Origin: Candidatus Kerfeldbacteria bacterium CG_4_10_14_0_8_um_filter_42_10
GTDB lineage: Bacteria; Patescibacteriota; Patescibacteriia; UM-FILTER-42-10
DNA length: 64,000 bases
NCBI GenBank assembly: GCA_002784945.1
Contig: PFMD01000024.1
Location: forward strand, 17,858 to 81,857
Reading direction: 5' to 3'
Made by a program: the position numbers and the translations under genes. Positions 26,709-64,000 of this stretch are shown here, piece after piece (within the stretch, counting starts at the first letter, position 1; each line of letters starts with the position of its first letter). The notes under the pieces were generated by a model that searched no databases, was not told where the DNA came from, and saw only the letters and a list, made by a program, of their open reading frames with translations.

Positions 26709-26710
26709 AT

Positions 26711-27217: not shown

Positions 27218-27227
27218 TAATTCAGCA

Positions 27228-27629
27228 ATGAAAAGGGTTACGCCAAAACAATATGCCATCGCCTTGTACGAATCAATCAAAGATTCTGAAGGTACGGAAT
27301 TAAACCAAAGGATTCGCAATTTTTTGGAGTTGATTCGAAAAAGAAAAAACATGAAATCGCTTAATAAGATCTATAAGCATTTTGTCGCGGTATATCAAGA
27401 GCGCGAGCAAGTTTTGCAGGCTGAGGTAACCGCCAGCCGCGATCTTGGCAGTAAGGTCAAAAGCGAAATTATTCACTGGCTAAACGAATCTACCGGACGC
27501 ACTGCCACCTTAACGGAACTAATCGATCCAACCATACTCGGCGGAGTAATTGTTAAATTCGGCGACACGGTATGGGATGCCAGCTTAAAAAACAGTTTAA
27601 AAAAACTACAAAATTCCTTTAATAAATAA
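27228..27629 (+). CDS. atpH: F0F1 ATP synthase subunit delta (short form)
   Basis: 133 aa; OSCP-like C-terminal [17 protein letters not shown]; operon position between atpF and atpA. Confidence 0.65.
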
Positions 27630-27649
27630 CCAATAATCTATCAAATCAT

Positions 27650-29185: not shown

Positions 29186-29258
29186 CTTATTAGCCTTTTA
29201 GTCACACCGCACCCGCGACCTAAAAAGCTAAGAAGCTACTTCCTAACACCTAAAACAA
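29186..29258. repeat. A/T-rich AAGCTA inverted-repeat element between atpA and atpG
   Basis: CTTAGCTTATTAGCCTTTTAG ... CTAAAAAGCTAAGAAGCTA; family shared with 12840 and 37425. Confidence 0.5.
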
Positions 29259-30191: not shown

Positions 30192-30211
30192 ATATAGATT
30201 TTAAATTATAA

Positions 30212-31615
<1,404 letters not shown>

Positions 31616-31673
31616 AAAGCGCAAATACGCATTCGCGCTTTCTGATTCCCAATAACAATTACCATACTAACTT

Positions 31674-32129
31674 ATGCCAAAGATTAAGTTCAAAATCGTC
31701 ACTCCCGAAAAAGTGGTCTATGAAAATGAAATCGACCAAATTACCCTAACCACTAAAATGGGGGAAGTTACCATTCTCCCTAATCACATTCCTTTAGTAA
31801 GCTCCTTGAAGGCCGGCGAAATATTGATTAAAAAGGATGGGCAAGAAATACCCCTGGCCGTTTCCGGAGGATTTGCTGAATTAGCCAACAATAACCTGGT
31901 TATTCTAGCCGATACCGCCGAACGGGTGGAAGAGATCGACGAAGCCCAAGCGGAAGAAGCCAGAAAAAGGGCGGAAGAGTTTCTAAAAAGGCGGGGACAA
32001 GTGGCAGAAGAAGCGGTCGATTACACGGCCCTGGCCGCCAAGCTAGAAAAAGAACTGGCCCGTTTGAAAGTGGTTCGAAAATATCGAAGAAATCGGCCAT
32101 CTCAACCCACTATAAGATTAGAAGAATAA
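31674..32129 (+). CDS. atpC: F0F1 ATP synthase subunit epsilon
   Basis: 151 aa; N-terminal beta-sandwich and C-terminal helical hairpin. Confidence 0.85.
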   Translation: MPKIKFKIVTPEKVVYENEIDQITLTTKMGEVTILPNHIPLVSSLKAGEILIKKDGQEIPLAVSGGFAELANNNLVILADTAERVEEIDEAQAEEARKRAEEFLKRRGQVAEEAVDYTALAAKLEKELARLKVVRKYRRNRPSQPTIRLEE

Positions 32130-48219: not shown

Positions 48220-48891
48220 TTAACTTATTTTAGATATTTTTTTAATAATTTCATCCGCTGAAGAAAAAAATTCTAGTTCCGCCAGAAATTCTCGGGGTAA
48301 AGTCTCCATATTCATCAAAGTCTGCAGTAAACCGATCCAGTAGTTGCTGATGAATACTAATTGGGGCAGCTGTTCCGGATGATATTTACGGTTATTGATA
48401 TGGGTAATTGCTCTCATTAACATCATTAACGTTCCTAAGCCCCCTCGAAAAATCACGATAATCGGCGCGCAGGTAGCCAAAAGTTCTATGCGCGGCGTGG
48501 GAGCATTCACTACTACGCGGGGACCATATTTGCTAATTTCTTTCTCTAACTCCGGAAAAACAATTCCCAGACTGTTTTCTTTACCTATTTTAGAACTAGC
48601 CTCCATAATACCCGACTTGCGGCCACCGTTCATAACAATTCCTCCGTTTGCTACCACATATTCTGTTATTCTAGCAGCATCTTGTGCCTGAGGATGATCA
48701 GCTTTAATTGTTCCACTACCGTTGATAGAAACTACCAGTCCCTCACTTTCATAAGTCAAAAGGTATTCCTGCGAAGAACCGTGAATAGAAACCCAAGCTT
48801 TAGCGCTTTTCAGCTCCACTTCTTTAATTATTTCACCCAGCAATCTTCTTTTTTTCTTTTGGAATATTTCTTCTAAATTTTGCTTTGCCAT
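48220..48891 (-). CDS. LOG/TIGR00725-family Rossmann-fold protein
   Basis: 223 aa; VMNGGRKSGIMEASSKIG...IVIFRGGLGT motifs of the SLOG superfamily. Confidence 0.5.
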   Translation of the reverse strand: MAKQNLEEIFQKKKRRLLGEIIKEVELKSAKAWVSIHGSSQEYLLTYESEGLVVSINGSGTIKADHPQAQDAARITEYVVANGGIVMNGGRKSGIMEASSKIGKENSLGIVFPELEKEISKYGPRVVVNAPTPRIELLATCAPIIVIFRGGLGTLMMLMRAITHINNRKYHPEQLPQLVFISNYWIGLLQTLMNMETLPREFLAELEFFSSADEIIKKISKIS

Positions 48892-48982: not shown

Positions 48983-50227
48983 CTATTCGTATCTTAACGC
49001 ATCTAAAGGATTAATTTTGGCGGCGCGGCGCGCCGGATAATATCCAGTTACTAAACTTACCATAAACGAGACGAATAACACTGCCCCCGCTAAAAGAAGT
49101 GGGGTATAGAAGATATCCACCACTTCGCCGCCTGCTCTTTTGGCAAAATAATTTATTCCGTAATTAGTGCCCTCTCCCAATAAAAATCCGACAATCAGCC
49201 CAATGGTGCCGCCCGTCATCCCGATCAAAACCGCTTCGGTGATAAAAAGGCGGTAAATGTCTTTAGTGGTTGCGCCCAGCGCTTTCATTATTCCAATTTC
49301 TCTGGTTCTTTCCAAAAGAGAAACAGTGAGAGTATTAAGTGAACCCATTGCCGCTACAAACATGGCGATGGCACCGAATAAACCCATGATAATTTCAAAA
49401 ACCAAGAATATTTTGTCGATTTGACCCACGGTATCGGCAATCGAATCAACCTGGTATCCCATTCCTTCAATTTGAGCCCTGACTTCTTTTAGCTTTGATT
49501 CGTCCTCCACTTTAACTCTGGCCATAGAGTACTCTTTTTCCTTTTCCACTTTTACTTTTGCCTCGCTGTAAGTAGGCTCAAAGCCGATACTAACTAAGTA
49601 ATCCAGGGGGGCATAAACTATTGATAACTCATCATCGTCTGCCACAACCCCCTGTGTTTTTACGGTAAGCTCCTTAGAAATTAATTCTTCTTCTTGAGTT
49701 CCTTCAATTTTCTGGGGAACTAATAATTTTAGCTTTAATTCTTTACCGACGGCTTCTTGGGGATCGGCAAATCCGATCAGATCCAGGGTAGTTTTGGTAA
49801 CAATTATTTCTTTAGCGGCCGCATCGGAAAATTCCTGACCGTAATTAACTTTGATGCCTTCCATTGACATAAACTCAGGGTTAATGCCATAAATTGCCAC
49901 ATCCGTAATTGCATCCCCGATCCCGACCTGACCGGAAAGGCTAAGAGAAGGGCTCACATCATTAACATTTTCCATGTTTTGAAATTTGTTTACCACTTCA
50001 TCATCCAATTTTAAAAGAGTGGATTCTCCTTTGCTGACATCTAGAACGGTCAATGCCTCTACATTAGTGATTTGATTTTTAATTAACAGCTGTAAGCCAA
50101 AGCCTAATGATAACAAAAAAACTATCAAAGAAATGCCCACCGCCATTCCTCCAATCGTCAGAACGCTCCTTAACTTTCTTTTGATTAAGTTGGACTGTGA
50201 TATGAATAGAATGTACCCAAATTTCAT
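48983..50227 (-). CDS. ABC transporter permease, FtsX/MacB-like
   Basis: 414 aa; N-terminal TM, ~250-aa extracytoplasmic domain, three C-terminal TM helices. Confidence 0.75.
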   Translation of the reverse strand: MKFGYILFISQSNLIKRKLRSVLTIGGMAVGISLIVFLLSLGFGLQLLIKNQITNVEALTVLDVSKGESTLLKLDDEVVNKFQNMENVNDVSPSLSLSGQVGIGDAITDVAIYGINPEFMSMEGIKVNYGQEFSDAAAKEIIVTKTTLDLIGFADPQEAVGKELKLKLLVPQKIEGTQEEELISKELTVKTQGVVADDDELSIVYAPLDYLVSIGFEPTYSEAKVKVEKEKEYSMARVKVEDESKLKEVRAQIEGMGYQVDSIADTVGQIDKIFLVFEIIMGLFGAIAMFVAAMGSLNTLTVSLLERTREIGIMKALGATTKDIYRLFITEAVLIGMTGGTIGLIVGFLLGEGTNYGINYFAKRAGGEVVDIFYTPLLLAGAVLFVSFMVSLVTGYYPARRAAKINPLDALRYE

Positions 50228-50233
50228 TTTTTT

Positions 50234-51097
50234 CTAAGCCTTAAATGAATTGCTGCCCTCTACTATTTTGCCATCACGGATATAAATAGTCCGGGAACCG
50301 TAAGTGACATAATCAATGTTATGAGTAACCATCAATAGAGTCTTTCTTAAACGTTCGTTAAGGTTCTTGAAAAACTCCATTACTTTGGTGGCTGATTCGG
50401 TATCCAAATTTCCGGTGGGCTCATCGGCTACCAGTATTGGCGGATTAGAGGTGAGGGCTCGCGCCACGCAAACTTTTTGCTGCTGACCGCCGGAAAGTGA
50501 GGTGGGGGCATAATTGGCATGATCATCAACCCCCATTTCTCTAAGCCGGTACCAGGCTTTTTCTAACCTTTCCTTTTTACTTATATTATTGATGGCTAAA
50601 GGAAGAACGACGTTTTGAAGCACGTTTAAAGACCTGATCCAGTCCGCTTTCTGAAAAATAATGCCAAAATTATTGTAACGGAATTTAGCCAGTTTATTCG
50701 GGCTTTTTTTGGTAATATCTTCCCCGCGTATAATCACCTTTCCTGAAGTGGGATACTCTAACCCCAATAAAGTATTCAAAAGGGTAGATTTTCCACTGCC
50801 TGAAGGCCCCAAGATAATTATGAATTCCCGTTCATAAATTTTAACATTGATATCCTTAAGAACGGGGATGAGGTTTTTCCCCACTTGAAAGGATTTATTA
50901 ACATGGACTAATTCAATAATCGGCTTCCTTTTATCTGAGCCGGCGTTGTTTTTGGTTTCGGTATCAAAACTATTTACTGTCTTGACTTGTTCTGCCGAAT
51001 TATTATTGGATTTTTTTTCTCCGTTCTGCTTTCCGTTCTGCTTTCCGTTACCGTTTTTACTATTTTTTTTCGCTTTTAGATTCTCACCGTTAACCAT
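50234..51097 (-). CDS. ABC transporter ATP-binding protein (MacB/LolD-like)
   Basis: 287 aa; GPSGSGKST, LSGGQQQKV, LVADEPTGNLD; N-terminal low-complexity NGKQNGKQNG tract from a short tandem DNA repeat. Confidence 0.85.
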   Translation of the reverse strand: MVNGENLKAKKNSKNGNGKQNGKQNGEKKSNNNSAEQVKTVNSFDTETKNNAGSDKRKPIIELVHVNKSFQVGKNLIPVLKDINVKIYEREFIIILGPSGSGKSTLLNTLLGLEYPTSGKVIIRGEDITKKSPNKLAKFRYNNFGIIFQKADWIRSLNVLQNVVLPLAINNISKKERLEKAWYRLREMGVDDHANYAPTSLSGGQQQKVCVARALTSNPPILVADEPTGNLDTESATKVMEFFKNLNERLRKTLLMVTHNIDYVTYGSRTIYIRDGKIVEGSNSFKA

Positions 51098-51180
51098 TAT
51101 TTTGGATGTTTCCTATGATTAATTTAGCTGAAAATATTATAATTATTATAACATTATTTTTGAAATTTTACAAAAACTAG

Positions 51181-54100
51181 CTAAAACGGCAATCCAATCT
51201 GACCCACCCAGGCAAAGGTTTCTTCTAAGTTAGAAATAACCAGCTGGAGGAAGGATTCTCTTTTGCGGGAGGTTAAAACCGAATAGGAACCGGATTTGGA
51301 TTCATTTCCGGCTTTATCAACGGCCACTACCCGAAAGCGATAGGTCTTGGCCGGAGCCAGTTCCGAGATTACCACTAAATGATCCATGACCAGTTCGGCG
51401 TTTGCTTCCGTCTGTTCGGTGAATTCCGTGCCGGAAAGGCCTACGCCAAATTCTGCCTGAGAAGTGGTTGGTTCGTTGGTTTTCCAATTGACGATGATCT
51501 GGACCGAGGAGGTTTCCCCCGCTCCAATCGTGTTGGATTCGGACTGGATTCCCGTGATTACCGGCGGGGTGGTATCTTCCAGCGTAGTAAAAGTATTCAC
51601 TTCGGATACGGCCTGGTAGCCGAACTGGTCAAAGCCTTTGGTTTTGAACTGGTAGGCGGTAGCATCTTCCAAACCGAATAGGAGAATGGAGTGGGTAGTG
51701 ACCAGGGCGGAGTTGCCTTGAGTTTTAGGGGCAATGGAAGAGTTGTAGTACTCTACTTCCGAAGTGGTAAGAACATTAGTGGTCCAGCTGATTTCGGTCT
51801 GTCCTTCGGATTTGTTTTCAAAGGATATGGAGAGTACTTTCGGAAAAGTCAGAGTAGTAAAGGAATAATCGCTTGATTCCGGGGAATTGCTGGTAGAATC
51901 CAGTCCGGTGGGCCTAAAGTGGTAGGTGGTGCCATCAGTAAGACTGGCAAGCTTCATAGTATGAGTAGTGGTGAGCGAGCCGGAGGTATCGGCCACCGTA
52001 AAGCCATAATCCACGGCAGTTCCATAGTCTAGCTTGGTGGTAGTGGGTTTGTTAGTGGTCCAGGTGATCAGAGCATCAAAGAGCTTAACGTCTGATACCA
52101 CCACTTCTGAGACACGGGGGGCTTCTAGAGTGGTGAAAGTAGCAATGCTGGAGAGAGCGACGTTGCCGTCTTGGTCTCTGGATCGAATCCGATAATAATA
52201 AGTAGTTTTCGATTCTAGTCCTTCCAAAACAACTGTATGTTTTTCACTTTCTTCAATCGTTCCCTGTTCTTCGCCAAATTCTTGAGTTAAACCATATTCT
52301 ACATGCGAATCAGCATTTCTTTCCGTTTCCCAAGTTACGTTTGCGGAAAAGGAATCCGGCGTTACAGTTGGTCCAGAGGTAATCTCTGGAGGGGTAGTAT
52401 ATCTTCCTTCGGGAATGTCTGAAACAGTTGTAGAAGCAGCGGAGGTAGCTCCGGCCGTGTCTTTAGCCTTAACCTTGTAATAGTAGGTTTCCGAGTTATC
52501 CAGACCGACATCCAGGTAGCCGTAGGAAGTGATTTCTGCAATAGATTCAAAGTGATCATCATCATCAACGGACCGTTCGATAATATAGGTGATTTCTTCC
52601 CCATCGGAAGCACTGCTTTGGGTTACTTGTTCCCAAACTAGGGTAATGGAATAAATTTCCGCTTCCCGATTGGAAGAATCGGTAATAATCAATCCGGTAG
52701 GAATCGAGGGGGCTTCAGTCTCCGCCTCAAAATCAATCGAAGCGTAGTTGGAGTAATTAATGTTGTTGTCTTCGTCAATCGCCACCACATAGAAAGTGTT
52801 GGTACCCTGCTGGGTAGCATAGGGGCCGGGGCCGACATATTCGTTGGTGGTATAAGAAACATTTTCTTCCGTAGGAGTGGAGTTGATGGAATAGAAATAG
52901 CCCTGGACCGTCACCCCTTCATCTAAGGGCGGGTCCCAGGTGAACTTAAAGGAGTTTTCCGTGTTGTATTCCGGAGTAACAGCAAGGTTGGTGGGAGCAG
53001 ATAAAGCATCAGCGGTGGTAAAGGTGTAATCGGAAGAATAGCCGGTATTATCATCTTCATCGGTCCATCTCGCCCGGTAATGGTAGGTGGTGTCAGGTTC
53101 CAGGGCAATGAGGGTTACTTCATGGGAAGTGACAAAGTCTTCCTGGCCCTGTTCCTCGCCATAGGAGGTGGCAGTACCGTATTCCACAAAAGAGGAGCCT
53201 TCCCGATCAGTGAGCCATTCTACTGTGGCGGATTGGATCCGGGTGGTTACTCCGGGAGTGCCAACTAAATTAGGCGGTACGTAATATCTTCCCCGGGCCT
53301 GCTCGCAGACTGCCGTGGAGGCGGCGGAGACGGCATTGGCGTTATCCGCTGCTTTGATCCGGTAACAATACCAGGCATTCTGGGTCAGACCGGTATCTAA
53401 GTAACCGGTGCCGGCCACTTGGGATATCTCTGAGTAGTTAACCCCTTCATCTTCGCTTCTTTCCACGTTGTAATGATCAATGCCGGAACCAGTGTTTTCC
53501 GGCTCATCCCAGGTAACAGTTAAGGAGAATTTGTCCTGGGCCCGGTTGGAGGTGTCAGTGACAATTACGCCTACAGGGATACCGGGAGCAGAAGTGTTAG
53601 CGGTGAATTCTATGGAAGAGTAAGCGTTGTAGTTGACGTTGCCGGCCGCATCTTCCGCTACTATGTAAAAAGTGTTGGTGCCCTGCTGGGTAGCGTAGGG
53701 GCCGGGGCCGATAGAGGTAGCAGTGGTAGTGGAGGTATTGAGAGCGGTAGGCAGGGCATTGATGGAATAGTGGTAGCTGGCAATAGAACCGCTGTAGATG
53801 GCCGGAGCACTCCAGGAAAAAGTGAAAGAGTTGGTAGAAGTTGGTTCGGCAGGGTCTACGGCTAAATCTTGGGGTTCGGAAGGAGCCGAGCCGTTGTAAT
53901 AGTAGTTTACTTGGGCATAGGAAGAAGCGAGGTTTCCGGCCTCATCTTTGCTTCGGACATAGAAAACATTAACGTTTTCCTGGTAGGATTCGATGCCAGA
54001 GACGGAGGTGCCGGAGATACAGGTTTCGACGAATCCTTCTTCGCCTGTTTTGTAGCAGTATTCCCCTATTCCGGAATCATCATCTGATCCGGCGGACCAA

Positions 54101-56214: not shown

Positions 56215-56229
56215 TATTCTTACAAAAAC

Positions 56230-59200
56230 CTAGAATGAACCGCCGATCCTTCCAATCCAAGAGAAAGTTTCCTCCAGATTAGAAATAATCAGCTGTAAAA
56301 ATGATTCTCTTTTTCGGGAGGTCAACACGGTATAAGCGCCGGATTTAGTGGTATTTCCCGCTTTATCTCGGGAAACCGCTCTAAAGCGGTAAGTTTTAGC
56401 CGGAGCAAGATCTGAAATAACCACTAAATGATCCATGACCAGTTCGGCGTTTTCATCGGTTTGTTCGGTAAATTCGGTTGCTCCCAAGCCTACTCCGTAT
56501 TCCACCTGAGAAGTAGTCGCCTCATTGGTTTTCCAAGAGATGATGATTTGCACTTTGGATTCTTCACCGGCGCCAATCGTGTTTGATTCCGACTGAATTC
56601 CGCTTACCACTGGCGGAGTGGTATCTTCTAAGGTAGTGAATTCATTCTCATCGGAAACCGCTTCATAGCCGAATTCATCTGATCCTCTCACTTTAAACTT
56701 ATAGAGAGTGGCGTCTTCTAATCCATAAAGAAGAATAACATGCTCTTTCACCATGGCGGTATTACCTTGCGTTTTGGGAGGAATATTTTCACTGTAGTAT
56801 TCCACTTCAGAAGTAGTTGGCACATTAGTGGTCCAAGTCACTTCCGTCTGTCCTTCGGACTGGTTGCGGGAAGAAACGGTTAGAACTTCAGGAAAGGTTA
56901 GAGTGGCAAAGATATAATCATCCGAAGCAATCGGATTGCCGTTGCGGTCTTCACCGCCGATTCTTAAGTGATAAGTAGTGCTGTCAGTTAAACCTTCCAG
57001 CTTAACGGTATGAGTCAGGGCGTAGGATCCGGAAGTATCAGTATAAGTCAAGCCGTAATTAGCCGTAGTGCCGTATTGAATCACGGCCGTTGATTCTTTG
57101 TTAGTTTCCCAACTGATAATTGCATCATACAGTTTAACATCACTGATTTTTACCTCTAATACTCTGGGCGCTTCTAAAGTGGTAAAGCTGTCAATCTCGG
57201 AATAAGCGATATTCTCATCAACGTCAATACTCTTTATTCGATAATAATAGGTGGTTTCCGATTTTAACCCCGTAACTTCAATCTCATGTTTTGCGATTAA
57301 ATCAGCGGTACCTTGTTCTTCCGTTAAATCATTGGCCTTTAAACCAAACTCGACGAAAGAAGAAGCGATTCTTTCCGTTTCCCAAACGATGTCAGCGGAA
57401 AACGAATCCGGCGTGGCGACAGGTGATACGGTAATGGCCGGCGGCTGGGTATAGCGGCCTTCAGGTACTTCTGAAACTATGTCAGTAGCTTTGGATGCCG
57501 CACCGGCTTTGTCTTCTGCAACAACTTTATAGAAATATTCTTTAGAGCTATCAAGACCGGTGTCTAAAAATCCGGTTGAGGTAAATCTGGCAATTTCTGA
57601 AAAACTGTCTTTTTCCCCAACTTTGCGATAAAGAGAATAGTAAACTATTTCAGTTTCATCTTCTGAAGATGACGTTTCATATCCTTCGGGCGGGTCCCAA
57701 GTAATGGTAATGGAATAACGCTTGGCATCACGATCAGAGGAATCGGTAATAGTCACAGCTTGTGGAGGTCCCGGAGGTTCGGTCTCGGCTTCGAAGTCAA
57801 CCGATGCATAATTGGCATAATTGATATTGCCGGAGTCGTCCACCGCCACCACATAAAAAGTATTGATTCCTTGCTGAGTGGCAGCGTCGTAAGGACCAAT
57901 ATAAGTATTGGCGGTAAAAGAGACATTGTCTTCAGTGGGAATATTATTCACCACATAAAAATATCCGGCTACGGTAACACCCTCGTCAGTGGGAGCGCCC
58001 CAGGTAAACTTGAAGCGATTAACAGTGTTGCATTCCGGGTCAACCTCTAGATTGATAGGAGCAGATGGCGCGCCATTGGTAGTAAAAGTGAAATCACTGG
58101 AATAACCGATGTTACCGTCAATATCCACCCATTTGCAGCGGAAATGATAGGTCGTTTCCGGAGTTAAATCAGTCAAAGTAACTTCATGCTCACTAACCAT
58201 ATCAGATGTTCCAGTTTCATTACCGTAGGAAGCTGTTTCCCCATATTCCACAAAAGAAGTCGCCGGATGAGGAATAATGTTTCCTTCTCTATCCTGATCA
58301 TCAAGCGTTAGCCATTCAACCACCGCAGAACGAATTCTGGTTTGAACGCCCGGCTGACCGCTCATAGAAGGGGCGCTCTTAAACTTTCCTTCCGGCTTCA
58401 TTTCTACTAAAGCAGAGTTACCCGAAGCGGCATTTCCCGGACCAATCGCTCTGGTGAAGTAAGTATAAGTAATGGTATTATCAAGGCCCGTATCTAAATA
58501 ACCCAAAGTGGAAGTAGAGGCAATTTTAGTGTAATTATCAGGAGGATCATTTACGGTAGAAGGATTCTGGCAATCCTCTTCACAACGGTAGATATTATAC
58601 AAATCAACTCCCGCTCCTACATCATCCGGTTCATCCCAAGTCAGAGTAATAGAATAACGGCTGGTGGATCGATCAGATGAGTCTGTAGCCTGAATGCTGG
58701 CAGGTACTCCCGGCGCAGTAGAATCAAAAATATAGGTTGCGGTAACATAATTACTGTAATCAATATTATTGATTAAGTCAGTAGCAACGATATAAAGAGT
58801 ATTAGTACCCTGCTGGGTAGCGGCGGAGAACCCTGACAATAAGCGATTGGTTGTCTGGGTATCAGTAGTCCAACCGCCATCCGGACTTGGGGTAGTGCTG
58901 CCGCCTGTATTAGTCCCGCAATTGACAGCGTTTGGCAACTCGTTAATGGTATAACAGTATCTTAAAATATCACTGGCTTCACAAGGCGTTTGTCCTAAAC
59001 AGGTGTCCGGTAAACTCCAGGAAAATGAAAAAGTGTTATTGTTGGTTTGAGATGTTGGTGAAACCACGACGCTCGCCGGAGCGGTAGGAGCTTCGCCGGC
59101 ATAATAGTAAGTGGTGGAAGCGTAACTGGAAGAATAATTACCCGCCCCATCTTTCGCCCGAACATAAAAGGTATTACCTCTGGATTGATAAGCTTGAATG

Positions 59201-62200
59201 CTGGAAACGCTGGTATTGGAAGAAGCGATACAGGTATCTTCCGCGCCTTCGGCTCCGGTTTTATAGCAATAATAAGCCACACTGGAGCCGCCGGTATCAG
59301 AAGAAGCGGTCCAGGAAAAAGCAAAACTATTGGTGGAAGAATAACCAGATGGCGAAACGCTGACTCCCGTGGGATTAGAAGGGCTGATGATATCTAATTT
59401 AAAGGTATAAAGCACCCCTGAAGATAAAGCCGTATTATTATTAATATCCTTGGTCCGGATAATAAGATAATAAGTACCCGAGGTTAAAGCGGAAGCGCTT
59501 TGGGTAGCGGCGTTCCAGGAACCGGTAGTGCCGCCTGAAACAGTATAGAAATTAGTTCCGCTTTTATAGGCCTTATTAGTAGGATCAGCCGCATTATCTA
59601 TCGGATCCAAGCTGCTATTTGTCCCAAAATAAACATAAAATCCATCAACACCAATTCCACCTGAATTATCGGTGGCGGTCCATTCAAAATAGGGATTAGC
59701 ATCATAAGTCCAAGTATTATTACTGATAGAAGTAGCTTTAGTATTATCAGTATAACCCGATGCGGAAGAAGGATTAGTAGGAGCAGTAGCATCTGAATAA
59801 TAACTCAACGTAATATCATTAACTGTCGGGGTGTATATTTGATCGGAGGAAAACGTAACCCGGACTTGCACATACCGCGCTGGCGTAGAGTCAACCGTGT
59901 AGTAATCGGTTGAACCGTACGTGAATTGGTTTGACACCTCATCCCAGTCTGCCCAGTTGGCGTCGTCAGGATCGCTCGAACAGCCAGCGTCAGAGCAGGA
60001 ACGAATTTCGTACTTAAGCGATGTGTTTGTCTGCGTCGTATCATTCACCGTCAGGCCGCCGAAGTCGTAGATCGATCCAAGGTTAAGAATCTGCGAGGTC
60101 CACGTGCCGTTTTGTTCGAACCCTGTTGACGAAGAGGCGGGCACGAATCGAGTCAGTGCCGAAGTATTGTAACCGCGAAAACCGTAGAGAATACCGTTTG
60201 TACCTGTCTCCAGAGCGCCATAATACCAGTATTCGTCATTCGTACTTATCGTACCCCAGCTGTCGCCAGAAATGCTGTATACGTAGACGTTCGTGTTCGC
60301 GTTCGTGCCGGCGACGACGTAAATCAGATCACTGCCGTCATAGGTACACGCGTCGGACTGGTAGATGTTCCCAGGCGCATCGGTAAGCGTCGTCGCTCCG
60401 TCCCACGTCTGGGTGCCGATGTTGAATCGGAAGATATCTGCGGTATTCTGTGCGCGGATCTGGTAGATGTAGTCAGTGCCGCCATCGCTCGCCTTTACCG
60501 CACAGCCACCTTGGTAGACGGCTGCTGGAACAGTTGACGCGACGGTGGACCAGGTATCCGTGGCGATGGTGTACTTGTAGTTTGTTGTCGTATTCTGTCC
60601 GCGGACAGTGTAGATCGCACCGTCCTCGCCGTTGACAAGATTCGCTCCGTAGCCGAGCCACGCCGGTGCGGCGTTGCCATTTGACCACATATTAGTCGCC
60701 ACGTCGTAGATATACATTTTTGACTCATTATCTTTATTGTATGATCCGGCCGCATAAACCTTACCACCCACATAGACAACATCCGAGCCGACATACATAG
60801 GGATCGGGGCGTCCATCAAGCGCTCATGCGTGCCGGTCGAGATCGTGTACTTGTAGAAATCCGTAGTGTTGTTCCCCCGCACGTAGTAAATGGTATCACC
60901 CCCATCGTAGGTGATGCCGCCATAGTAGAAGCCGTTAGACGTCTGGTCGTGCGGGATGCCCGTGTTCAGCCATTTATTGTTTCTTACGTCATAACTGTAG
61001 AAAGAGTACTCATTATACCCACGAAGCATATAAATGATATCTGTGTTTGTATCATAGACCATCCCTGCACTCGATCCGAAGTAGTGTGTTGAGGGAAGAC
61101 TGGCGAGAGGATCCCAGCGGTCATTCAAAATATCATATGAGAAGAAATTATCCGACGCGTAACCACGGGTCGCATAAATAGTACCGTTATTGTAGAGAAG
61201 CGCTCCGCCATACTGGACGTAGAACGGAATGGCTGTTATGTTCGTCCAGGTGTTCGCGCTGACATCATAGCGGAGAAATTGCGACGTACTTGCACCACGC
61301 AGGGCAAAAATGCATCCTAATGCGTCGCTACAGTAAGTACCATTCGGAACAAAGACTGCTGATGAACCGTAGTTGAACGCGTACGACGGAGAGCTCCTTG
61401 TGACCCAACTGTTTCCAGAAATGCTGTACCGGTAAAACTCGGTCGAGTTGTTTGACCGGAACGCAAAGATATAATCACCGCCGTTCCATACCATGGACCC
61501 GCCGTAACCGACGCCGGTGCCGCCGTACGCTTGGAGCGCCGTCCACGTATTTGCGCCGACATTATAGCGGAGGAACTCCGTTGAATTATTGCCAACGAGC
61601 GCGAAGACGCACCCCGAAGCATCCGCACACTGGGTGCCATTCGGGATGTAGGTAATGGTGGTTCCGTAGTATGCGTTCGCCGTGCTGGTGATGTCAGCAA
61701 GCGACGACCATGTTTTTGACGAGATGGTGTACTTGAAAAAACTTTTGGAGTTCACGGATCGGAGAACAAAGATTGTATCATCACCATCGAAGGCCATAGC
61801 TGTATCGTTATACGCCGTTGTTAGTGCTGCTGTGCCGAACGTAGACGGCAGGTCCATCCACAACCCCTCCGCAATAGAGGATAAAGTCATTGCGGTTCCT
61901 GTGCCCGCTGCGGTGTTAACGTTGGAAGATGTTGTCCCGGCCGCTTCAAAGTCTGCCTGGACCGTCCACGTCTGCGTTGAGGCGGGCGATATACCATTAT
62001 AGGTGTATGTAAAACCGGACACCGCCGAAGATGTATTGCCTGCGTTATCCTTTGTCACAATCCGCAGGTAGTACGTCGTACCGCTTACTAAATCCGTGTT
62101 CACCTCGTACGTCGTACCCGTCTGATAGTAGTCCTCGCTCGAGGAAGGGTCAGCCGATCCGTTTGTCGTCCACTGCACGTAGTAGCCGGCAATACCGGAA

Positions 62201-64000
62201 CTTTCGTCCGTTGCTCCGGAAAGTTCAAAGTAGGGATTGGTGTAGTACGCCGAGCTGCCGGACGTTACGGTTGTCGCTTTGCTGGAGTCTGCATAACCCG
62301 TAACGGTCGGGTTCGTTGGATTATCACTGTCCTTCTCATAGGTAATGGTGAAGTCTGAAAGCGTCGGGGTGTTTGTTCCATCGGAAGTAAGCGTGACTTT
62401 AATCTGAACATAGCGCCGCGCGAGTGAAGAAATTGTTCCCCCAGAGATTGCGGCCCACGACGACCAATTGACTTGGTCGGTGGATGTCCGGGAGTAGTAG
62501 GCGATTGATGTTGCTCCAGGCGTCGTCGATGAGGCAGCAAAACTTGTGAACGATTCTACCCATTTTAGGTCAAGCGTATCGGAAATCCACGAAACCGAAT
62601 CCGCGTATTGATTCGTCGACATATCGGCTTTGTAGATTGAGGTTGTGTTGAATCCGCGCAACGCGTAGAGCGTATCCGTGCCAGTATCATAGGTGATGCC
62701 TGTTCCGTAGCCGCTCGTCCGCTCTGGAAAGTCGATTGAGCGCTCCCACGTATCATCCGATATGCTATATCGCCAGAAGTAGTCGCGGTAATCGCCGGAC
62801 GCCGTGTAGATGTAATTCGTTCCGTCGTAGACAATATCATCCGCGTAGTATGTGCTTGTCGGGAGCGACGCCAGCGCTGTCCAGCCCACGCCCGGCTGGT
62901 ACCGGTAGAATTCGCTCCGCCAGTAACCCATAAGTGAATAGACGTAAGTGCCGTCGTTCGTAATCGCCCCTCCCGCGTAAATAGAGTACGGCGGGACCTT
63001 CTCTTCCGCCCAAACGCCGTTATAACTGAAGAAGTGATTGTTGTTGTTCCCTTTCTGGGCGTACACCGTTGCTCCCATACAGGTTACCCCACCGCCATAT
63101 CGGGCGTTCAGCGAGCCCGCCGTCCCTCCTGAATGAGTGGCAGGCATGCTGGTCAACGTGCTCCACGTTCCCCCAGAGATGCTGTAGCTGTAGAAATTCA
63201 GCGTATTATTTCCCCGGAGAGCATAGATCGTTCCATTACCGTTGTAGCAGATCGAGCTACCTTCCCGCATACCGCCGGGGATTACATTCAGCGTCGTCCA
63301 CGCATGCGCATTGATGTCGTACCGCCAGAATGTCGTCGTGTTCTCTCCTTGGGCAACGAAGAGACACCCGTCAACGTCGCTGCAGTCAGCCCCGTTCGGG
63401 ACGAACGAGATCATGCTCCCCTCGTAGCTGTTCCCAACGTTTAAAGGTGTTGAAATTGAGTCCCAGTGTTCGTTGGTAAGATCATACCGCCAAAATTCGG
63501 GAGTGCCATTCCCGCGGATGGCGTACAGGTAGTTGCCGTATCGGAGGAGTGATCCACCGCCATAGACAGTGCCCGGCGCATCCGGCGTATCTGTGATGTT
63601 AACGTCCCACGTTTCTGTGTCTACGTCATATTTAAAGAAATCGTCCGTGTTATATCCGCGGAGCATGTAAACATAACCGTCTGTGGGGTCATAAGCCATT
63701 GAACCGCCGTAGTGGGGCCCGCCAAGCGCGACCGGAATAGTTGTTGCCGTGTACCACTGGCTTTCGGCGATATCGAAACGGAAGAACTCGCGATTGCCGT
63801 TTCCCCGCATAGCAAAAACGCACCCTTGCGCGCACGCAGTCGGATCTCCGTACGATTCATCAACATATTCCAGCGCGTGACCCGTTGTTGTGTAAACCTG
63901 GTATCCCGGTATTGCTGGCAGGGTATCGTCCCAAGTATCGGTCGCAATATTGTATGACCAGAAAGTCGCCGTTGATCTTCCCCGGGCCGCGTAGATAAGA
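56230..64000 (-). CDS. Giant surface protein, 5'-partial (Kelch-like beta-propeller repeats + FN3 domains)
   Basis: More than 2590 aa. The track ORF begins at Met 63810, but the same reading frame is open and still Kelch-like (IYAARGRSTATFWSYNIATDTWD) up to the window edge. N-terminal ~1300 aa consist of ~50-aa Y..RG.N..F..Y....W repeats. Confidence 0.8.
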   Translation of the reverse strand, partial: LIYAARGRSTATFWSYNIATDTWDDTLPAIPGYQVYTTTGHALEYVDESYGDPTACAQGCVFAMRGNGNREFFRFDIAESQWYTATTIPVALGGPHYGGSMAYDPTDGYVYMLRGYNTDDFFKYDVDTETWDVNITDTPDAPGTVYGGGSLLRYGNYLYAIRGNGTPEFWRYDLTNEHWDSISTPLNVGNSYEGSMISFVPNGADCSDVDGCLFVAQGENTTTFWRYDINAHAWTTLNVIPGGMREGSSICYNGNGTIYALRGNNTLNFYSYSISGGTWSTLTSMPATHSGGTAGSLNARYGGGVTCMGATVYAQKGNNNNHFFSYNGVWAEEKVPPYSIYAGGAITNDGTYVYSLMGYWRSEFYRYQPGVGWTALASLPTSTYYADDIVYDGTNYIYTASGDYRDYFWRYSISDDTWERSIDFPERTSGYGTGITYDTGTDTLYALRGFNTTSIYKADMSTNQYADSVSWISDTLDLKWVESFTSFAASSTTPGATSIAYYSRTSTDQVNWSSWAAISGGTISSLARRYVQIKVTLTSDGTNTPTLSDFTITYEKDSDNPTNPTVTGYADSSKATTVTSGSSAYYTNPYFELSGATDESSGIAGYYVQWTTNGSADPSSSEDYYQTGTTYEVNTDLVSGTTYYLRIVTKDNAGNTSSAVSGFTYTYNGISPASTQTWTVQADFEAAGTTSSNVNTAAGTGTAMTLSSIAEGLWMDLPSTFGTAALTTAYNDTAMAFDGDDTIFVLRSVNSKSFFKYTISSKTWSSLADITSTANAYYGTTITYIPNGTQCADASGCVFALVGNNSTEFLRYNVGANTWTALQAYGGTGVGYGGSMVWNGGDYIFAFRSNNSTEFYRYSISGNSWVTRSSPSYAFNYGSSAVFVPNGTYCSDALGCIFALRGASTSQFLRYDVSANTWTNITAIPFYVQYGGALLYNNGTIYATRGYASDNFFSYDILNDRWDPLASLPSTHYFGSSAGMVYDTNTDIIYMLRGYNEYSFYSYDVRNNKWLNTGIPHDQTSNGFYYGGITYDGGDTIYYVRGNNTTDFYKYTISTGTHERLMDAPIPMYVGSDVVYVGGKVYAAGSYNKDNESKMYIYDVATNMWSNGNAAPAWLGYGANLVNGEDGAIYTVRGQNTTTNYKYTIATDTWSTVASTVPAAVYQGGCAVKASDGGTDYIYQIRAQNTADIFRFNIGTQTWDGATTLTDAPGNIYQSDACTYDGSDLIYVVAGTNANTNVYVYSISGDSWGTISTNDEYWYYGALETGTNGILYGFRGYNTSALTRFVPASSSTGFEQNGTWTSQILNLGSIYDFGGLTVNDTTQTNTSLKYEIRSCSDAGCSSDPDDANWADWDEVSNQFTYGSTDYYTVDSTPARYVQVRVTFSSDQIYTPTVNDITLSYYSDATAPTNPSSASGYTDNTKATSISNNTWTYDANPYFEWTATDNSGGIGVDGFYVYFGTNSSLDPIDNAADPTNKAYKSGTNFYTVSGGTTGSWNAATQSASALTSGTYYLIIRTKDINNNTALSSGVLYTFKLDIISPSNPTGVSVSPSGYSSTNSFAFSWTASSDTGGSSVAYYCYKTGAEGAEDTCIASSNTSVSSIQAYQSRGNTFYVRAKDGAGNYSSSYASTTYYYAGEAPTAPASVVVSPTSQTNNNTFSFSWSLPDTCLGQTPCEASDILRYCYTINELPNAVNCGTNTGGSTTPSPDGGWTTDTQTTNRLLSGFSAATQQGTNTLYIVATDLINNIDYSNYVTATYIFDSTAPGVPASIQATDSSDRSTSRYSITLTWDEPDDVGAGVDLYNIYRCEEDCQNPSTVNDPPDNYTKIASTSTLGYLDTGLDNTITYTYFTRAIGPGNAASGNSALVEMKPEGKFKSAPSMSGQPGVQTRIRSAVVEWLTLDDQDREGNIIPHPATSFVEYGETASYGNETGTSDMVSEHEVTLTDLTPETTYHFRCKWVDIDGNIGYSSDFTFTTNGAPSAPINLEVDPECNTVNRFKFTWGAPTDEGVTVAGYFYVVNNIPTEDNVSFTANTYIGPYDAATQQGINTFYVVAVDDSGNINYANYASVDFEAETEPPGPPQAVTITDSSDRDAKRYSITITWDPPEGYETSSSEDETEIVYYSLYRKVGEKDSFSEIARFTSTGFLDTGLDSSKEYFYKVVAEDKAGAASKATDIVSEVPEGRYTQPPAITVSPVATPDSFSADIVWETERIASSFVEFGLKANDLTEEQGTADLIAKHEIEVTGLKSETTYYYRIKSIDVDENIAYSEIDSFTTLEAPRVLEVKISDVKLYDAIISWETNKESTAVIQYGTTANYGLTYTDTSGSYALTHTVKLEGLTDSTTYHLRIGGEDRNGNPIASDDYIFATLTFPEVLTVSSRNQSEGQTEVTWTTNVPTTSEVEYYSENIPPKTQGNTAMVKEHVILLYGLEDATLYKFKVRGSDEFGYEAVSDENEFTTLEDTTPPVVSGIQSESNTIGAGEESKVQIIISWKTNEATTSQVEYGVGLGATEFTEQTDENAELVMDHLVVISDLAPAKTYRFRAVSRDKAGNTTKSGAYTVLTSRKRESFLQLIISNLEETFSWIGRIGGSF

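What the first reader, a model, noticed from the sequence alone, without database searches (positions are those of the whole stretch)
48983..64000. Tandem paralogous giant surface-protein genes co-oriented with a MacB/FtsX-type ABC exporter
Two adjacent minus-strand genes encode surface proteins of 1677 aa and more than 2590 aa. Their C-terminal ~1000 residues are 70-85% identical at the DNA level. Both have FN3 repeats and end in ...SRKRESFLQL(V/I)ISNLEETF(A/S)W(V/I)G(Q/R)IG. Their N-termini differ. One has a TM anchor with DUF2341-like and LamG-like modules. The other has a long Kelch-like beta-propeller array that continues past the window edge. Directly downstream on the same strand are an ABC ATPase and an FtsX/MacB-like permease, which suggests a dedicated export or processing module. 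The FG-GAP giant protein at 16599..22100 adds to this. In reduced-genome episymbionts such proteins are the prime candidates for host attachment.
Basis: partly seen in the sequence, partly recalled or inferred. Interest (0 to 1): 0.6.

Follow-up and report, generated by a model that had tools for sequence, protein, structure and literature searches.

The report
Giant adhesin tail paired with MacB-type ABC
Two giant membrane-anchored surface proteins of a candidate-phyla-radiation bacterium end in a short conserved helix that occurs on many giant proteins in related bacteria and is usually encoded next to one particular ATP-driven membrane machine, which suggests an undescribed system for handling the proteins thought to attach these bacteria to hosts.

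Summary
The genes are real. Gene A (51181-56214, 1677 aa) and gene B (56230 to past the window edge, 2893 aa on the source contig) are old paralogs. Each has a basic cytoplasmic N-terminus, one TM helix, a giant Fn3-rich ectodomain and the same 31-residue C-terminal tail. An ABC ATPase and a MacB/LolC/YtrF-type permease follow directly.

The main new result is that the tail is a family-wide signature. In 183 distinct tails it reads LTP-x4-S-(V/I)-(L/I)-(Q/D)-(L/I)-I-I-x-N-(F/L)-E-x-T-F-G-W plus a short basic end. It always sits at the extreme C-terminus of proteins of 749-6321 aa.

Tail genes are co-encoded with this ABC pair in 24 of 25 determinable genome assemblies and in about 72% of informative metagenome loci of a divergent clade. 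The link survives changes in gene order and flanks. Three tail-less Fn3 homologs have no such neighbour.

My best reading is that the tail is the recognition element for a type VII ABC machine acting on Sec-inserted adhesins from outside the membrane, not a trans-membrane exporter. The linkage is shown. Physical contact and host attachment are inferred.

The parts
56230..64000 (-). Gene B, giant surface protein. 2589 codons lie in the window. The complete CDS is 2893 aa and begins 912 nt beyond the window edge. Layout: basic cytoplasmic N-terminus, one TM helix, two Kelch-like propeller arrays, Fn3 repeats, C-terminal tail.
56233..56325 (-). Tail of B: LTSRKRESFLQLIISNLEETFSWIGRIGGSF
   Evidence: tail HMM and logo
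51181..56214 (-). Gene A, 1677-aa paralog. Layout: 42-aa basic N-terminus, TM helix (aa 41-59), DUF2341, LamG-like stretch, Fn3 / Pur_ac_phosph_N repeats, C-terminal tail.
56038..56094 (-). Single TM helix of A (aa 41-59, YWIQTSISVLLILALAVFL). It is preceded by 14 K/R against 4 D/E, which predicts N-in, C-out topology.
55567..55764 (-). DUF2341 domain of A (aa 151-216)
   Evidence: E = 5e-16
51184..51276 (-). Tail of A: LTSRKRESFLQLVISNLEETFAWVGQIGLPF. It is predicted as a lone helix (residues 327-343 of the 349-aa model) with low pLDDT, so it is not packed on the last Fn3 domain.
51136..51173 (-). Two overlapping sigma-70-like promoter matches (10 of 12) in the 83-nt A/T-rich gap between A and the ABC gene. 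No terminator-like site lies there. Function is not established.
50234..51097 (-). ABC ATPase, 287 aa, MacB/LolD/FtsE type. Walker A (GPSGSGKST), signature (LSGGQQQ), Walker B (ILVADEPT) and H-loop are intact. It has a roughly 60-aa K/N-rich N-terminal extension.
48983..50227 (-). Type VII ABC permease, 414 aa, with four TM helices (21-39, 273-291, 332-350, 377-395).
49412..50110 (-). Extracytoplasmic MacB_PCD-type domain of the permease (aa 40-272). This is the proposed docking surface for the tail.
   Evidence: MacB_PCD, E = 1.5e-17; matches 3ftj, 5f9q, 5udf; the docking role is inference only
48220..48891 (-). SLOG/LOG-like 223-aa gene. A homolog follows the permease directly in 13 loci of the window's subclade, so it may be a fourth member of the module in that subclade.

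Best explanation
A and B are type-II-anchored giant surface proteins. The N-terminus is in the cytoplasm, one TM helix crosses the membrane, and the ectodomain of lectin-like or Kelch modules plus Fn3 repeats lies outside. They are presumably inserted by the general Sec pathway.

Their conserved C-terminal tail has a 4-residue basic linker, a 16-17-residue amphipathic helix carrying N-(F/L)-E-x-T-F-G-W, and a short basic end. I propose this tail is the recognition element for the co-encoded type VII (MacB-family) ABC complex.

That complex would be a dimer of the 4-TM permease with its 233-aa extracytoplasmic domain, plus two ATPase subunits. It would not carry the proteins across the membrane. 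It would use cytoplasmic ATP hydrolysis to act on them at the outer face.

I favour docking of the tail on the extracytoplasmic domain with mechanical actuation, as FtsEX acts on EnvC, PcsB and RipC (about 0.3). The alternative within this explanation is extraction or release of a tail lodged in the outer leaflet, as LolCDE, YbbAP and HrtBA do (about 0.25).

One machine serves several client proteins whose outer domains diversify.

Shown: gene content, topology signals, tail conservation, co-encoding. Inferred: physical contact, direction of action, adhesin role.
For: 1. The tail is a specific motif, not just composition. In 183 distinct tails F is 100% conserved, W/F 99%, N 86%, I 84%, E 79% and Q/D 90%. 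The preceding L-T-P is 91/88/78% conserved. The tail always ends within 21 residues of the stop.

2. Of the 150 best 50%-identity cluster representatives, 69 carry the tail, and none carries it internally. Protein lengths are 749-6321 aa.

3. Co-encoding in genomes. In 24 of 33 genome loci the order is tail gene, ABC, permease. Four more loci are tandem tail-gene arrays cut by contig ends. By assembly, 24 of 25 determinable assemblies have the module.

4. Co-encoding in a divergent clade (NFExTFGW tails, ABC of about 445 aa). Of 57 informative loci, 41 are linked, and 7 of these have the permease upstream of the tail gene.

5. Four small tail-bearing homologs (28-38% identical to A's C-terminal 349 residues) were looked up. 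P0033, its close relative P0026, and P0021 are linked; P0012 is not.

6. Across 1.36 Mb of fetched loci, 65 of 67 permease-type ORFs lie within 4 kb of a tail gene.

7. Three tail-less Fn3 homologs have no ABC or FtsX gene within 8 kb.

8. Permease-selected distant loci from CPR3 and WWE3 have an A-like giant (45% identity) or a B-like giant (58% identity) next to the pair.

9. Genes beyond the module differ between loci, so the link is not general synteny.

10. A and B are old paralogs. Identity at 4-fold degenerate sites is 0.34-0.40, yet the last 80 residues are 80% identical. This indicates purifying selection on the C-terminus.

11. AlphaFold2 predicts the tail as a lone helix with pLDDT about 58 next to Fn3 domains above 90. 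It is therefore free to bind something else.

12. The permease is of the MacB/LolC/YtrF type. Pfam gives MacB_PCD plus FtsX. PDB sequence matches are YtrF at 2e-27 and MacB at 2e-23. The model matches MacB 5nik_J at TM 0.76 and LolE and YtrF at about 0.7.

13. Each of the E. coli type VII systems named in the abstracts read here works with an extracytoplasmic protein partner: EnvC, LolA, MacA/TolC and TesA (abstracts, PMC12646458, PMC5985334).

14. Each giant protein has one N-terminal TM helix with a strongly basic cytoplasmic flank and no C-terminal TM helix.
Against: - No direct evidence of contact between the tail and the permease. No docking model, covariation test or experiment was possible here.
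- If the giant ectodomain is extended, the C-terminal tail would sit far from the cell's own membrane. Permanent docking would then require a looped conformation.
- About 28% of informative loci in the divergent clade, 4 genome loci and P0012 show no adjacent ABC pair. The pair could be elsewhere in those genomes, but this was not checked.
- One permease-selected locus (L129/L130) has no giant gene within 10 kb.
- Loci were found by homology, so the counts are not independent evolutionary events.
- The tail is moderately amphipathic (hydrophobic moment 0.33-0.44, in the top 1.5-5% of shuffles). It could therefore also bind a membrane.
- The A-to-ABC gap carries promoter-like sites, so co-transcription is unproven.
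Confidence: 0.55

Rival explanations
1. The ABC pair handles another substrate that matters for the same surface function, for example a lipid, glycan precursor or peptide. It is co-encoded for co-regulation only. The tail has its own role at the distal tip of the adhesin, such as binding a host membrane or ligand, or oligomerisation.
For: - MacB-family members extract or expel small hydrophobic molecules: MacB, HrtBA, BceAB and YbbAP appear among the structural matches and in the abstracts.
- With an N-terminal anchor, the tail would be the most distal part of an extended protein.
- The tail is amphipathic and flanked by basic residues.
- Some tail genes have no adjacent ABC pair.
Against: - The conserved polar positions (S, Q/D, N, E, T) and the invariant F-G-W across clusters below 50% identity fit a defined protein partner better than generic membrane binding.
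- ABC linkage tracks the tail rather than the Fn3 scaffold, since three tail-less homologs are unlinked.
- The link persists through changes in gene order.
Confidence: 0.25
2. This is a dedicated trans-membrane exporter, as in type 1 secretion of giant adhesins. The ABC transporter recognises the uncleaved C-terminal signal and translocates the giant proteins across the membrane.
For: - The giant repetitive proteins carry a conserved extreme C-terminal element and have an adjacent ABC transporter. This resembles LapA- or RTX-type substrates (own knowledge).
- The linkage data fit this reading too.
Against: - Both proteins have an N-terminal signal-anchor TM helix with a positive-inside flank. 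Type 1 substrates lack N-terminal signals (own knowledge).
- The permease has the FtsX/MacB fold, not a HlyB-type exporter fold.
- No membrane fusion protein or outer-membrane factor is present in the locus.
- MacB-type transporters are described as acting by mechanotransmission rather than through a trans-membrane channel (PMC5985334).
Confidence: 0.05
3. The adjacency is inherited synteny with no functional meaning, and the tail is simply the conserved end of a repeat family.
For: - All loci come from related Patescibacteria lineages found by homology.
- Within the window's subclade the SLOG-like gene and sometimes ClpB are also syntenic.
Against: - The module is retained while flanking genes change.
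- Three gene orders occur: tail-ABC-permease, ABC-permease-tail, and permease-receiver-giant.
- The link holds between proteins only 28-38% identical.
- Nearly every permease-type ORF in 1.36 Mb of loci is next to a tail gene.
- Tail-less homologs are unlinked.
Confidence: 0.05

Closest known systems
FtsEX with EnvC, PcsB, CwlO or RipC (a type VII ABC complex that actuates an extracytoplasmic protein partner)
   Same: It has the same transporter superfamily and fold: a 4-TM FtsX-type permease with an extracytoplasmic domain between TM1 and TM2, plus a separate ATPase. The partner protein is bound through helices and the machine moves no substrate across the membrane. Functionally this is the closest analogy.
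   Different: The permease fails the FtsX models (39-53 bits against cutoffs of 225-255). Its 233-aa domain is of the MacB_PCD type, not a small FtsX domain. The proposed partners are giant TM-anchored Fn3 proteins with a single C-terminal helix, not coiled-coil hydrolase activators. No peptidoglycan hydrolase is in the locus.
LolCDE, YbbAP-TesA and HrtBA (type VII ABC extractors)
   Same: LolE, LolC, YbbP and HrtB are among the structural matches. These machines pull lipid-embedded moieties out of the outer leaflet. An amphipathic tail lodged in the leaflet could be handled in the same way.
   Different: There is a single permease gene, implying a homodimer, rather than LolC plus LolE. Scores fall far below the Lol cutoffs (84.5 against 362 bits). 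The clients have no lipobox, and the organisms are thought to have a single membrane (stated for the genus Patescibacterium in PMC11809585).
MacAB-TolC and Gram-positive MacB-like pumps (Spr0694-0695, YknXYZ, YtrEF)
   Same: These are the closest solved sequence and structure relatives: YtrF 2e-27, MacB 2e-23 with TM 0.76, and Spr0695. The gene order, with an N-terminally anchored extracytoplasmic protein followed by ATPase then permease, mirrors macA-macB.
   Different: There is no membrane fusion protein and no TolC. The upstream gene is a 1700-2900-aa Fn3 protein with no HlyD-like domains.
Type 1 secretion of giant adhesins (LapA, SiiE, RTX proteins)
   Same: These are giant repetitive surface proteins with a conserved uncleaved C-terminal element and an adjacent ABC transporter.
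   Different: The ABC fold class is different. N-terminal TM anchors are present here. There is no adaptor or outer-membrane component.
C-terminal sorting signals with a dedicated machine (LPXTG-sortase, PEP-CTERM-exosortase, T9SS C-terminal domain)
   Same: The logic is the same: one short C-terminal signature shared by many otherwise diverse surface proteins, co-encoded with one dedicated machine. Tail-less homologs of the same Fn3 family end instead in termini that look like other C-terminal sorting or anchoring signals (read by eye as T9SS-CTD-like and hydrophobic-plus-basic; no domain scan was run on them) at the same position.
   Different: The tail has no hydrophobic TM segment and no known cleavage motif. 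No NCBIfam or Pfam model covers it. The partner is an ABC complex rather than a transpeptidase.
Giant DUF2341/Fn3 surface proteins of Patescibacteria described as putative adhesins
   Same: They share the same kind of protein and the same inferred role (PMC11809585; PMC13059738).
   Different: Those papers do not mention the C-terminal tail or a link to a MacB-type ABC pair. Both papers annotate ftsX/ftsE as cell-division genes.

Membership tests
Type VII (MacB-family) ABC transporter | Permease with four TM helices and a large extracytoplasmic domain between TM1 and TM2 | tested here: met
   TM helices at 21-39, 273-291, 332-350 and 377-395, with a loop at 40-272. The AlphaFold2 model has long TM1 and TM2 helices.
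Type VII (MacB-family) ABC transporter | MacB_PCD-type extracytoplasmic domain and FtsX C-terminal TM domain | tested here: met
   PF12704 at 65 bits (cutoff 27) and PF02687 at 69.4 bits (cutoff 25.5). Foldseek matches 5nik_J at TM 0.76, 9o9x_C at 0.71 and 9rld_E at 0.69, and the isolated domains 3ftj, 5f9q and 5udf.
Type VII (MacB-family) ABC transporter | Cognate ATPase of the LolD/MacB/FtsE type with intact motifs, encoded adjacent | tested here: met
   ABC_tran at 115 bits. Best NCBIfam matches are LolD, MacB, DarD and FtsE, all below equivalog cutoffs. Walker A, Walker B, signature and H-loop are visible in the sequence. There is a 6-nt gap to the permease gene.
MacAB-TolC tripartite pump | Membrane fusion protein (MacA/HlyD type) and outer-membrane factor | tested here: not met
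   No such domains were found in the genes of the locus.
FtsEX cell-division complex | Permease reaches the FtsX family models; small FtsX-type extracytoplasmic domain; hydrolase-activating coiled-coil partner | tested here: not met
   FtsX models score 39.6-53.3 bits against cutoffs of 225-255, and only the C-terminal TM part aligns. The PDB FtsX match is only E = 6e-4. The extracytoplasmic domain is 233 aa of MacB type. No LytM, CHAP or NlpC protein is in the locus.
LolCDE lipoprotein release system | Two paralogous permeases (LolC and LolE) reaching equivalog cutoffs | tested here: not met
   There is one permease gene. lolCE scores 84.5 bits against a cutoff of 362.
Type 1 secretion substrate and transporter | Substrate without an N-terminal signal; HlyB-type ABC exporter; adaptor and outer-membrane protein | tested here: not met
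   A and B have N-terminal TM anchors. The permease is of the FtsX/MacB type. No adaptor is present.
Sortase- or exosortase-type C-terminal sorting signal | Signature motif followed by a hydrophobic TM helix and a basic tail, with the sorting enzyme encoded in the genome | tested here: not met
   No TM-grade hydrophobic segment lies at the C-terminus. The helix carries conserved N, E and Q/D. No NCBIfam or Pfam model hits the tail. No sortase or exosortase gene is in the locus. The rest of the genome was not visible.
Fn3 / Pur_ac_phosph_N repeat surface proteins | Multiple Fn3-like beta-sandwich repeats | tested here: met
   For A, Pur_ac_phosph_N scores 109.9 bits and fn3 91 bits. For B they score 75.7 and 65 bits. 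The AlphaFold2 model of the last 349 residues is all beta-sandwich with pLDDT 87.6.
DUF2341 / LamG module (gene A) | Pfam DUF2341 and Laminin_G_3 domains | tested here: inconclusive
   DUF2341 is met (59.3 bits, cutoff 23.4). Laminin_G_3 was not reported for A at E <= 0.01, but it is on record for the orthologs in L003.
Kelch beta-propeller (gene B) | Kelch repeats above the Pfam cutoffs | tested here: met
   Kelch_1 at 40.9 bits (cutoff 20.1), Kelch_3 at 34.9 (cutoff 22) and Kelch_6 at 33.1 (cutoff 25.3). There are 15 blade-signature motifs in two arrays.
Proposed tail-plus-ABC module (defined here) | Tail motif within about 20 residues of the C-terminus of an Fn3 protein, with an ABC ATPase and a MacB-type permease adjacent on the same strand | tested here: met
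   The window shows it. It recurs.

The most novel reading that the evidence does not exclude
The tail and the MacB-type ABC pair form a previously unrecognised client-and-machine system that is widespread in Patescibacteria. A short C-terminal helix marks giant, N-terminally anchored adhesins as clients of a dedicated type VII ABC mechanotransducer. That machine uses cytoplasmic ATP to deploy, tension, retract or release them. If so, host attachment by these episymbionts would be an actively powered and regulated process. Small cytoplasmic sensor genes (SLOG-like or receiver domain) sit right after the permease in several lineages and could supply the regulation.
Probability: 0.3. Interest if true: 0.85.

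Novelty: new variant of a known kind. Interest (0 to 1): 0.62.

Why it matters
Candidate-phyla-radiation bacteria make up a large share of bacterial diversity. Most are thought to live attached to hosts, and their giant surface proteins are the usual suspects for attachment (PMC11809585, PMC13059738). Almost nothing is known about how those proteins are handled.

A short, easily searchable C-terminal signature tied to one dedicated ATP-driven machine would give three things. It would give a way to list the client proteins in any genome. It would give a concrete and testable peptide-domain interaction. It would add a new kind of partner for the type VII ABC family, whose known partners are EnvC, LolA, MacA and TesA.

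It would also correct routine annotation of this pair as FtsEX, or as an antimicrobial-peptide or macrolide exporter.

Tried and rejected
- **Genome scan with alignment A1.** I replaced it with the closer set A2 and, for the divergent clade, with A4.
- **Recent gene conversion between A and B.** This would explain identity rising toward the 3' end. I rejected it because 4-fold degenerate sites are only 34-40% identical and the longest shared exact run is 33 nt.
- **Archaeal spread of the family.** One cluster has members labelled Thermoplasmata archaeon. The locus of its representative carries PilM, PilB and ComF-like genes, so the label is probably a binning error.
- **Second homolog search for taxonomy.** Searching with the divergent-clade C-terminus returned only short fragments and no taxonomy. 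The cluster look-up gave almost no names.
- **Known RNA or defence context.** There were no Rfam hits and no tRNAs in the 64 kb. PADLOC gave only generic ABC and LolE-type TM matches.
- **Operon structure.** The promoter and terminator scan was inconclusive. Promoter-like sites lie in the A-to-ABC gap and no terminator does, but overall counts are near the shuffle expectation.
- **Sorting-signal models.** No NCBIfam or Pfam family covers the tail. The PDB profile search matches only the Fn3 part.
- **Docking by AlphaFold2.** I considered fusing permease, linker and tail into one chain.
- **Literature.** Six full-text searches found no description of the tail or of the link to the ABC pair. The library is limited, so this is not proof of novelty.

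Full report
**What is in the window**

Four co-oriented minus-strand genes fill 48983-64000.
- Gene B runs from 56230 to past the window edge.
- Gene A is 51181-56214 and encodes 1677 aa.
- An ABC ATPase is at 50234-51097 (287 aa).
- A permease is at 48983-50227 (414 aa).

B has no stop codon up to base 63999, giving 2589 codons in the window. An exact-sequence look-up of A found the source contig, ENA ERZ27293407 k141_327463, 82,147 bp. On that contig B is complete at 2893 aa, and the contig ends 227 nt upstream of it.

Gaps between the genes are short:
- B to A: 15 nt.
- A to ABC: 83 nt.
- ABC to permease: 6 nt.

The A-to-ABC gap is A/T-rich. It holds two sigma-70-like promoter matches and no terminator-like site, so co-transcription is open.

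**Domains and topology**

Pfam gives A a DUF2341 domain and Fn3 / Pur_ac_phosph_N repeats. It gives B Kelch repeats and the same Fn3 types. The ATPase hits ABC_tran. The permease hits MacB_PCD and FtsX.

A hydropathy scan finds exactly one TM helix in each giant protein, near the N-terminus.
- In A it is at residues 41-59, after 42 residues with 14 K/R against 4 D/E.
- In full-length B it is at residues 113-131, after 108 residues with 39 K/R against 3 D/E.

Both are therefore predicted to be N-in, C-out single-pass proteins.

**Paralogy**

A residues 309-1677 align with B at 48% protein identity. On a codon alignment the last 1000 residues are 59% identical in protein and 60% in DNA. In 100-codon windows the DNA identity ranges from 50% to 74%, rising toward the 3' end.

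Four-fold degenerate sites are only 34-40% identical, and the longest exact shared run is 33 nt. The duplication is therefore old. The strong conservation of the last 80 residues (80% identical) reflects selection rather than recent conversion.

A-like proteins (about 1670-1690 aa) and B-like proteins (about 2940-3010 aa) both recur in related genomes.

**The tail**

Both proteins end in LTSRKRESFLQL(V/I)ISNLEETF(A/S)W(V/I)G(Q/R)IG plus 3 residues. In this window no other ORF of at least 100 codons ends that way. That includes the 1833-aa CarboxypepD_reg/FG-GAP protein at 16599-22100.

Elsewhere the tail is widespread.
- A search with A's last 349 residues found it on close Patescibacteria homologs. 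It also found it on small signal-peptide proteins of 450-520 aa that are only 28-38% identical.
- A profile of the last Fn3 domain plus tail was run against 1.84 billion cluster representatives. Of the best 150, 69 carry the tail. In every case it lies within 16 residues of the C-terminus. Protein lengths range from 749 to 6321 aa, with a median of 2285.
- Tail-less homologs in the same list end in other kinds of terminus. By eye (no domain scan was run on them), some resemble the C-terminal domain of type IX secretion substrates, and others are a hydrophobic stretch followed by basic residues.

A logo from 183 distinct tails reads as follows:
- (Y/F)(T/S)(V/L/I), then L (0.91), T (0.88), P/S (0.96).
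- Four polar or basic residues.
- S (0.72), (V/I/F), (L/I/F), Q/D (0.90), (L/I), I (0.84), I, x.
- N (0.86), F/L (0.93), E (0.79), x, T (0.71), F (1.00), G/S (0.90), W/F (0.99).
- Then 2-21 residues (median 6) with 1.46 K/R against 0.11 D/E on average.

The L-T-P is the end of the last Fn3 strand. Earlier repeats in the same proteins end in FTTLE or FTTLP.

AlphaFold2 on the last 349 residues gives confident beta-sandwiches with mean pLDDT 87.6. It gives the tail as one helix, residues 327-343, with pLDDT about 58. The helix is therefore not packed on the Fn3 domain.

The helix is moderately amphipathic. Its hydrophobic moment is 0.33-0.44, in the top 1.5-5% of shuffles. No Pfam, NCBIfam or PDB entry covers it.

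**Linkage to the ABC pair: relatives of the window**

A scan of one genome per species with the last 125 residues gave 33 loci. Those with an informative label are Patescibacteria or Kerfeldbacteria; seven TPA assemblies are labelled uncultured Gammaproteobacteria.
- In 24 loci the tail gene is followed at once, on the same strand, by an ABC ATPase and a homolog of the window's permease.
- In 4 loci it is followed by a second giant gene of the same type that runs off the contig. This is the tandem layout seen in the window.
- In 4 loci it is followed by unrelated genes. Three of those genomes hold another, linked copy.
- One locus is uninformative.

By assembly, 24 of 25 determinable genomes have the module.

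Genes beyond the module differ. The window has a SLOG-like gene, GIY-YIG genes and ClpB. L033 and L035 have ORFs that look like TsaD and ValRS from their sequences (no domain scan was run on them). L003 has a 2-hydroxyacid dehydrogenase.

A 1.08-Mb contig (CP060223.1) labelled Candidatus Nomurabacteria has at least four tail-ending ORFs, some fragmented, before one ABC pair.

**Linkage to the ABC pair: divergent lineages**

- The 488-aa protein P0033 and its relative P0026 are followed by an ABC ATPase with a long C-terminal extension and then a MacB-type permease.
- P0021 has a variant tail and is followed by an ABC ATPase and a 685-aa MacB-type permease.
- P0012 is not linked.

A metagenome scan for the clade with N-F-E-x-T-F-G-W tails returned 80 loci.
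- 26 have the order tail, ABC, permease.
- 5 show the ABC or permease gene and then the contig ends.
- 2 are partial.
- 7 have the permease directly upstream of the tail gene.
- 1 has the pair but the tail was not called.
- 16 show no pair in the visible flank. In 13 of these the upstream side is not visible.
- 23 are too short to judge.

This gives 41 linked out of 57 informative loci.

In all 1.36 Mb of fetched loci, 65 of 67 permease-type ORFs lie within 4 kb of a tail gene. The other two are in loci L116 and L120, where the pair is present but interrupted or the tail was not called.

**Controls and the reverse test**

Three tail-less Fn3 homologs were looked up: P0047 from Patescibacteria, P0019, and P0014 from Nitrospirae. 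None has an ABC_tran, MacB_PCD or FtsX gene within 8 kb.

For the reverse test, three permease homologs of 42-45% identity were chosen without regard to neighbours.
- The CPR3 locus has ABC, permease, then an A-like giant that is 45% identical to A over 1092 residues and is cut by the contig end.
- The WWE3 locus has ABC, permease, a receiver-domain protein, then a B-like Kelch giant that is 58% identical to B over 887 residues and is also cut.
- The third locus has ABC, permease, a receiver-domain protein and a 444-aa membrane protein, with no giant gene in 10 kb.

All these loci were found by homology, so the counts are not independent events. The varied gene orders and flanks argue for repeated retention.

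**What the ABC pair is**

The ATPase has intact Walker A, signature, Walker B and H-loop motifs. Its best matches are LolD, MacB, DarD and FtsE, all below equivalog cutoffs.

The permease has four TM helices and a 233-aa loop between TM1 and TM2.
- Its nearest solved sequence relatives are B. subtilis YtrF (2e-27), MacB (2e-23), Spr0695, LolF, LolC and LolE. FtsX matches only at 6e-4.
- An AlphaFold2 model (pLDDT 77) superposes on MacB in the MacAB-TolC structure (TM 0.76, rmsd 3.9), on YtrF (0.71) and on LolE (0.69). It also superposes on the isolated extracytoplasmic domains of MacB, YknZ and LolE.

It is a type VII (MacB-family) ABC permease. It fails the FtsX and LolCE family cutoffs. The locus has no membrane fusion protein, TolC or hydrolase. 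PADLOC finds nothing specific.

**How it most likely works**

The MacB review abstract describes a mechanism called mechanotransmission (PMC5985334). [quoted passage not shown] The YbbAP-TesA abstract pairs each E. coli system with an envelope partner: FtsEX with EnvC, LolCDE with LolA, MacAB with TolC, and YbbAP with TesA (PMC12646458). All three abstracts were read.

The giant proteins have their own N-terminal signal-anchors, so Sec insertion is the simplest route across the membrane. This step is inference. The ABC complex would then act on them outside.

Three features fit a specific contact between the tail and the permease:
- The exact residue conservation of the tail.
- Its free-helix prediction.
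- Its strict C-terminal position.

The pattern of one ABC pair with several tail proteins also fits.

I put 0.55 on that direct client-and-machine relation. Within it I favour docking and actuation in the FtsEX manner (about 0.3) over extraction or release of a leaflet-lodged helix in the LolCDE or YbbAP manner (about 0.25).

The main rival (0.25) is that the pair handles some other molecule and the tail works at the distal tip of the adhesin. Trans-membrane export in the type 1 manner (0.05) and meaningless synteny (0.05) are disfavoured by the evidence above.

Nothing here shows contact, processing, operon structure or host binding.

**Comparison with the literature, and novelty**

Giant DUF2341/Fn3 proteins of Patescibacteria are already discussed as putative adhesins (PMC11809585; PMC13059738). 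The giant proteins themselves are therefore not new.

Six full-text searches found no description of the C-terminal tail or of its link to a MacB-type ABC pair. No curated family model covers the tail.

I rate this a new variant of a known kind: a type VII ABC machine with a new class of extracytoplasmic partner and a new recognition motif. The library searched is limited, so prior description elsewhere cannot be excluded.

Noticed in passing
window 48220-48891 (- strand): A 223-aa SLOG/LOG-like protein with weak hits to LDcluster4, Lysine_decarbox and TIGR00725/TIGR00730. A homolog follows the permease directly in 13 loci of the window's subclade (L001, L006-L009, L011-L015, L020, L021, L025), which is more often than the next genes do. 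It may be a cytoplasmic regulatory fourth member of the module.
   Followed up: partly
L128:7861-8325; L129:7256-7714; L130:11211-11669: In the more distant WWE3-type and related loci a CheY-like receiver-domain protein follows the permease directly, in the slot that the SLOG-like gene occupies in the window's clade. This hints at regulatory input to the ABC complex.
   Followed up: no
window 16599-22100 (- strand): An 1833-aa protein with five CarboxypepD_reg repeats, FG-GAP repeats and a Glucodextran_B-like domain. It lacks the tail and ends in ...RGGVLTKFIN. It is a separate kind of giant surface protein.
   Followed up: partly
L041, L042, L058-L062 and others (ABC ORFs of about 420-500 aa); L005:9472-10773: In the divergent NFExTFGW clade the ABC ATPase carries a roughly 200-aa helical C-terminal extension with no Pfam hit. 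The window's ATPase instead has a 60-aa K/N-rich N-terminal extension. The giant proteins have long basic cytoplasmic N-termini, so a cytoplasmic contact is conceivable.
   Followed up: no
L041:6087-10587: The tail, ABC and permease module of P0166 sits next to type IV pilus genes (PilM, and a PilB-type ATPase with an MshEN domain) and a ComF-like gene. Members of the P0166 cluster are labelled Thermoplasmata archaeon in NCBI, which looks like a binning error.
   Followed up: partly
L012, L026, L027, L035, L036, L038 (record titles): Several TPA-assembled genomes that carry this Patescibacteria-type module are titled 'uncultured Gammaproteobacteria bacterium'. The taxonomic labels are probably wrong.
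   Followed up: no
L003:1-16392 (CP060223.1, contig labelled Candidatus Nomurabacteria): An array of DUF2341/LamG/Fn3 genes before one ABC pair. It includes short ORFs (121, 417 and 427 aa) that look like fragments of larger genes. For example, P0015 ends out of frame within an Fn3 repeat. These are either pseudogenes or assembly frameshifts.
   Followed up: no
window 1-64000: There are no tRNA genes and no Rfam family at gathering score anywhere in the 64 kb. The window does carry an F-type ATP synthase cluster (gene-table style hits; ORFs at 25155-32129, + strand), a ClpB (44619-47408) flanked by two small GIY-YIG ORFs, and an AddA-like UvrD/PD-(D/E)XK helicase-nuclease (12871-15771).
   Followed up: partly
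window 2394-4727 (- strand): A second, unrelated ABC system lies in the window: an ABC-2-type permease (2394-3617) with a DrrA-like ATPase (3834-4727). It has no giant-protein neighbour.
   Followed up: no
P0033 / L005:8001-9467: The minimal 488-aa tail proteins have an insert of about 60 residues, rich in E, K and A and looking helical by eye, between the first and second Fn3 domains (KKLVEIPGVEKFGEEAKLIEKAVEAVYQMK...). A and B lack it. Whether it pairs with the tail helix was not examined.
   Followed up: no
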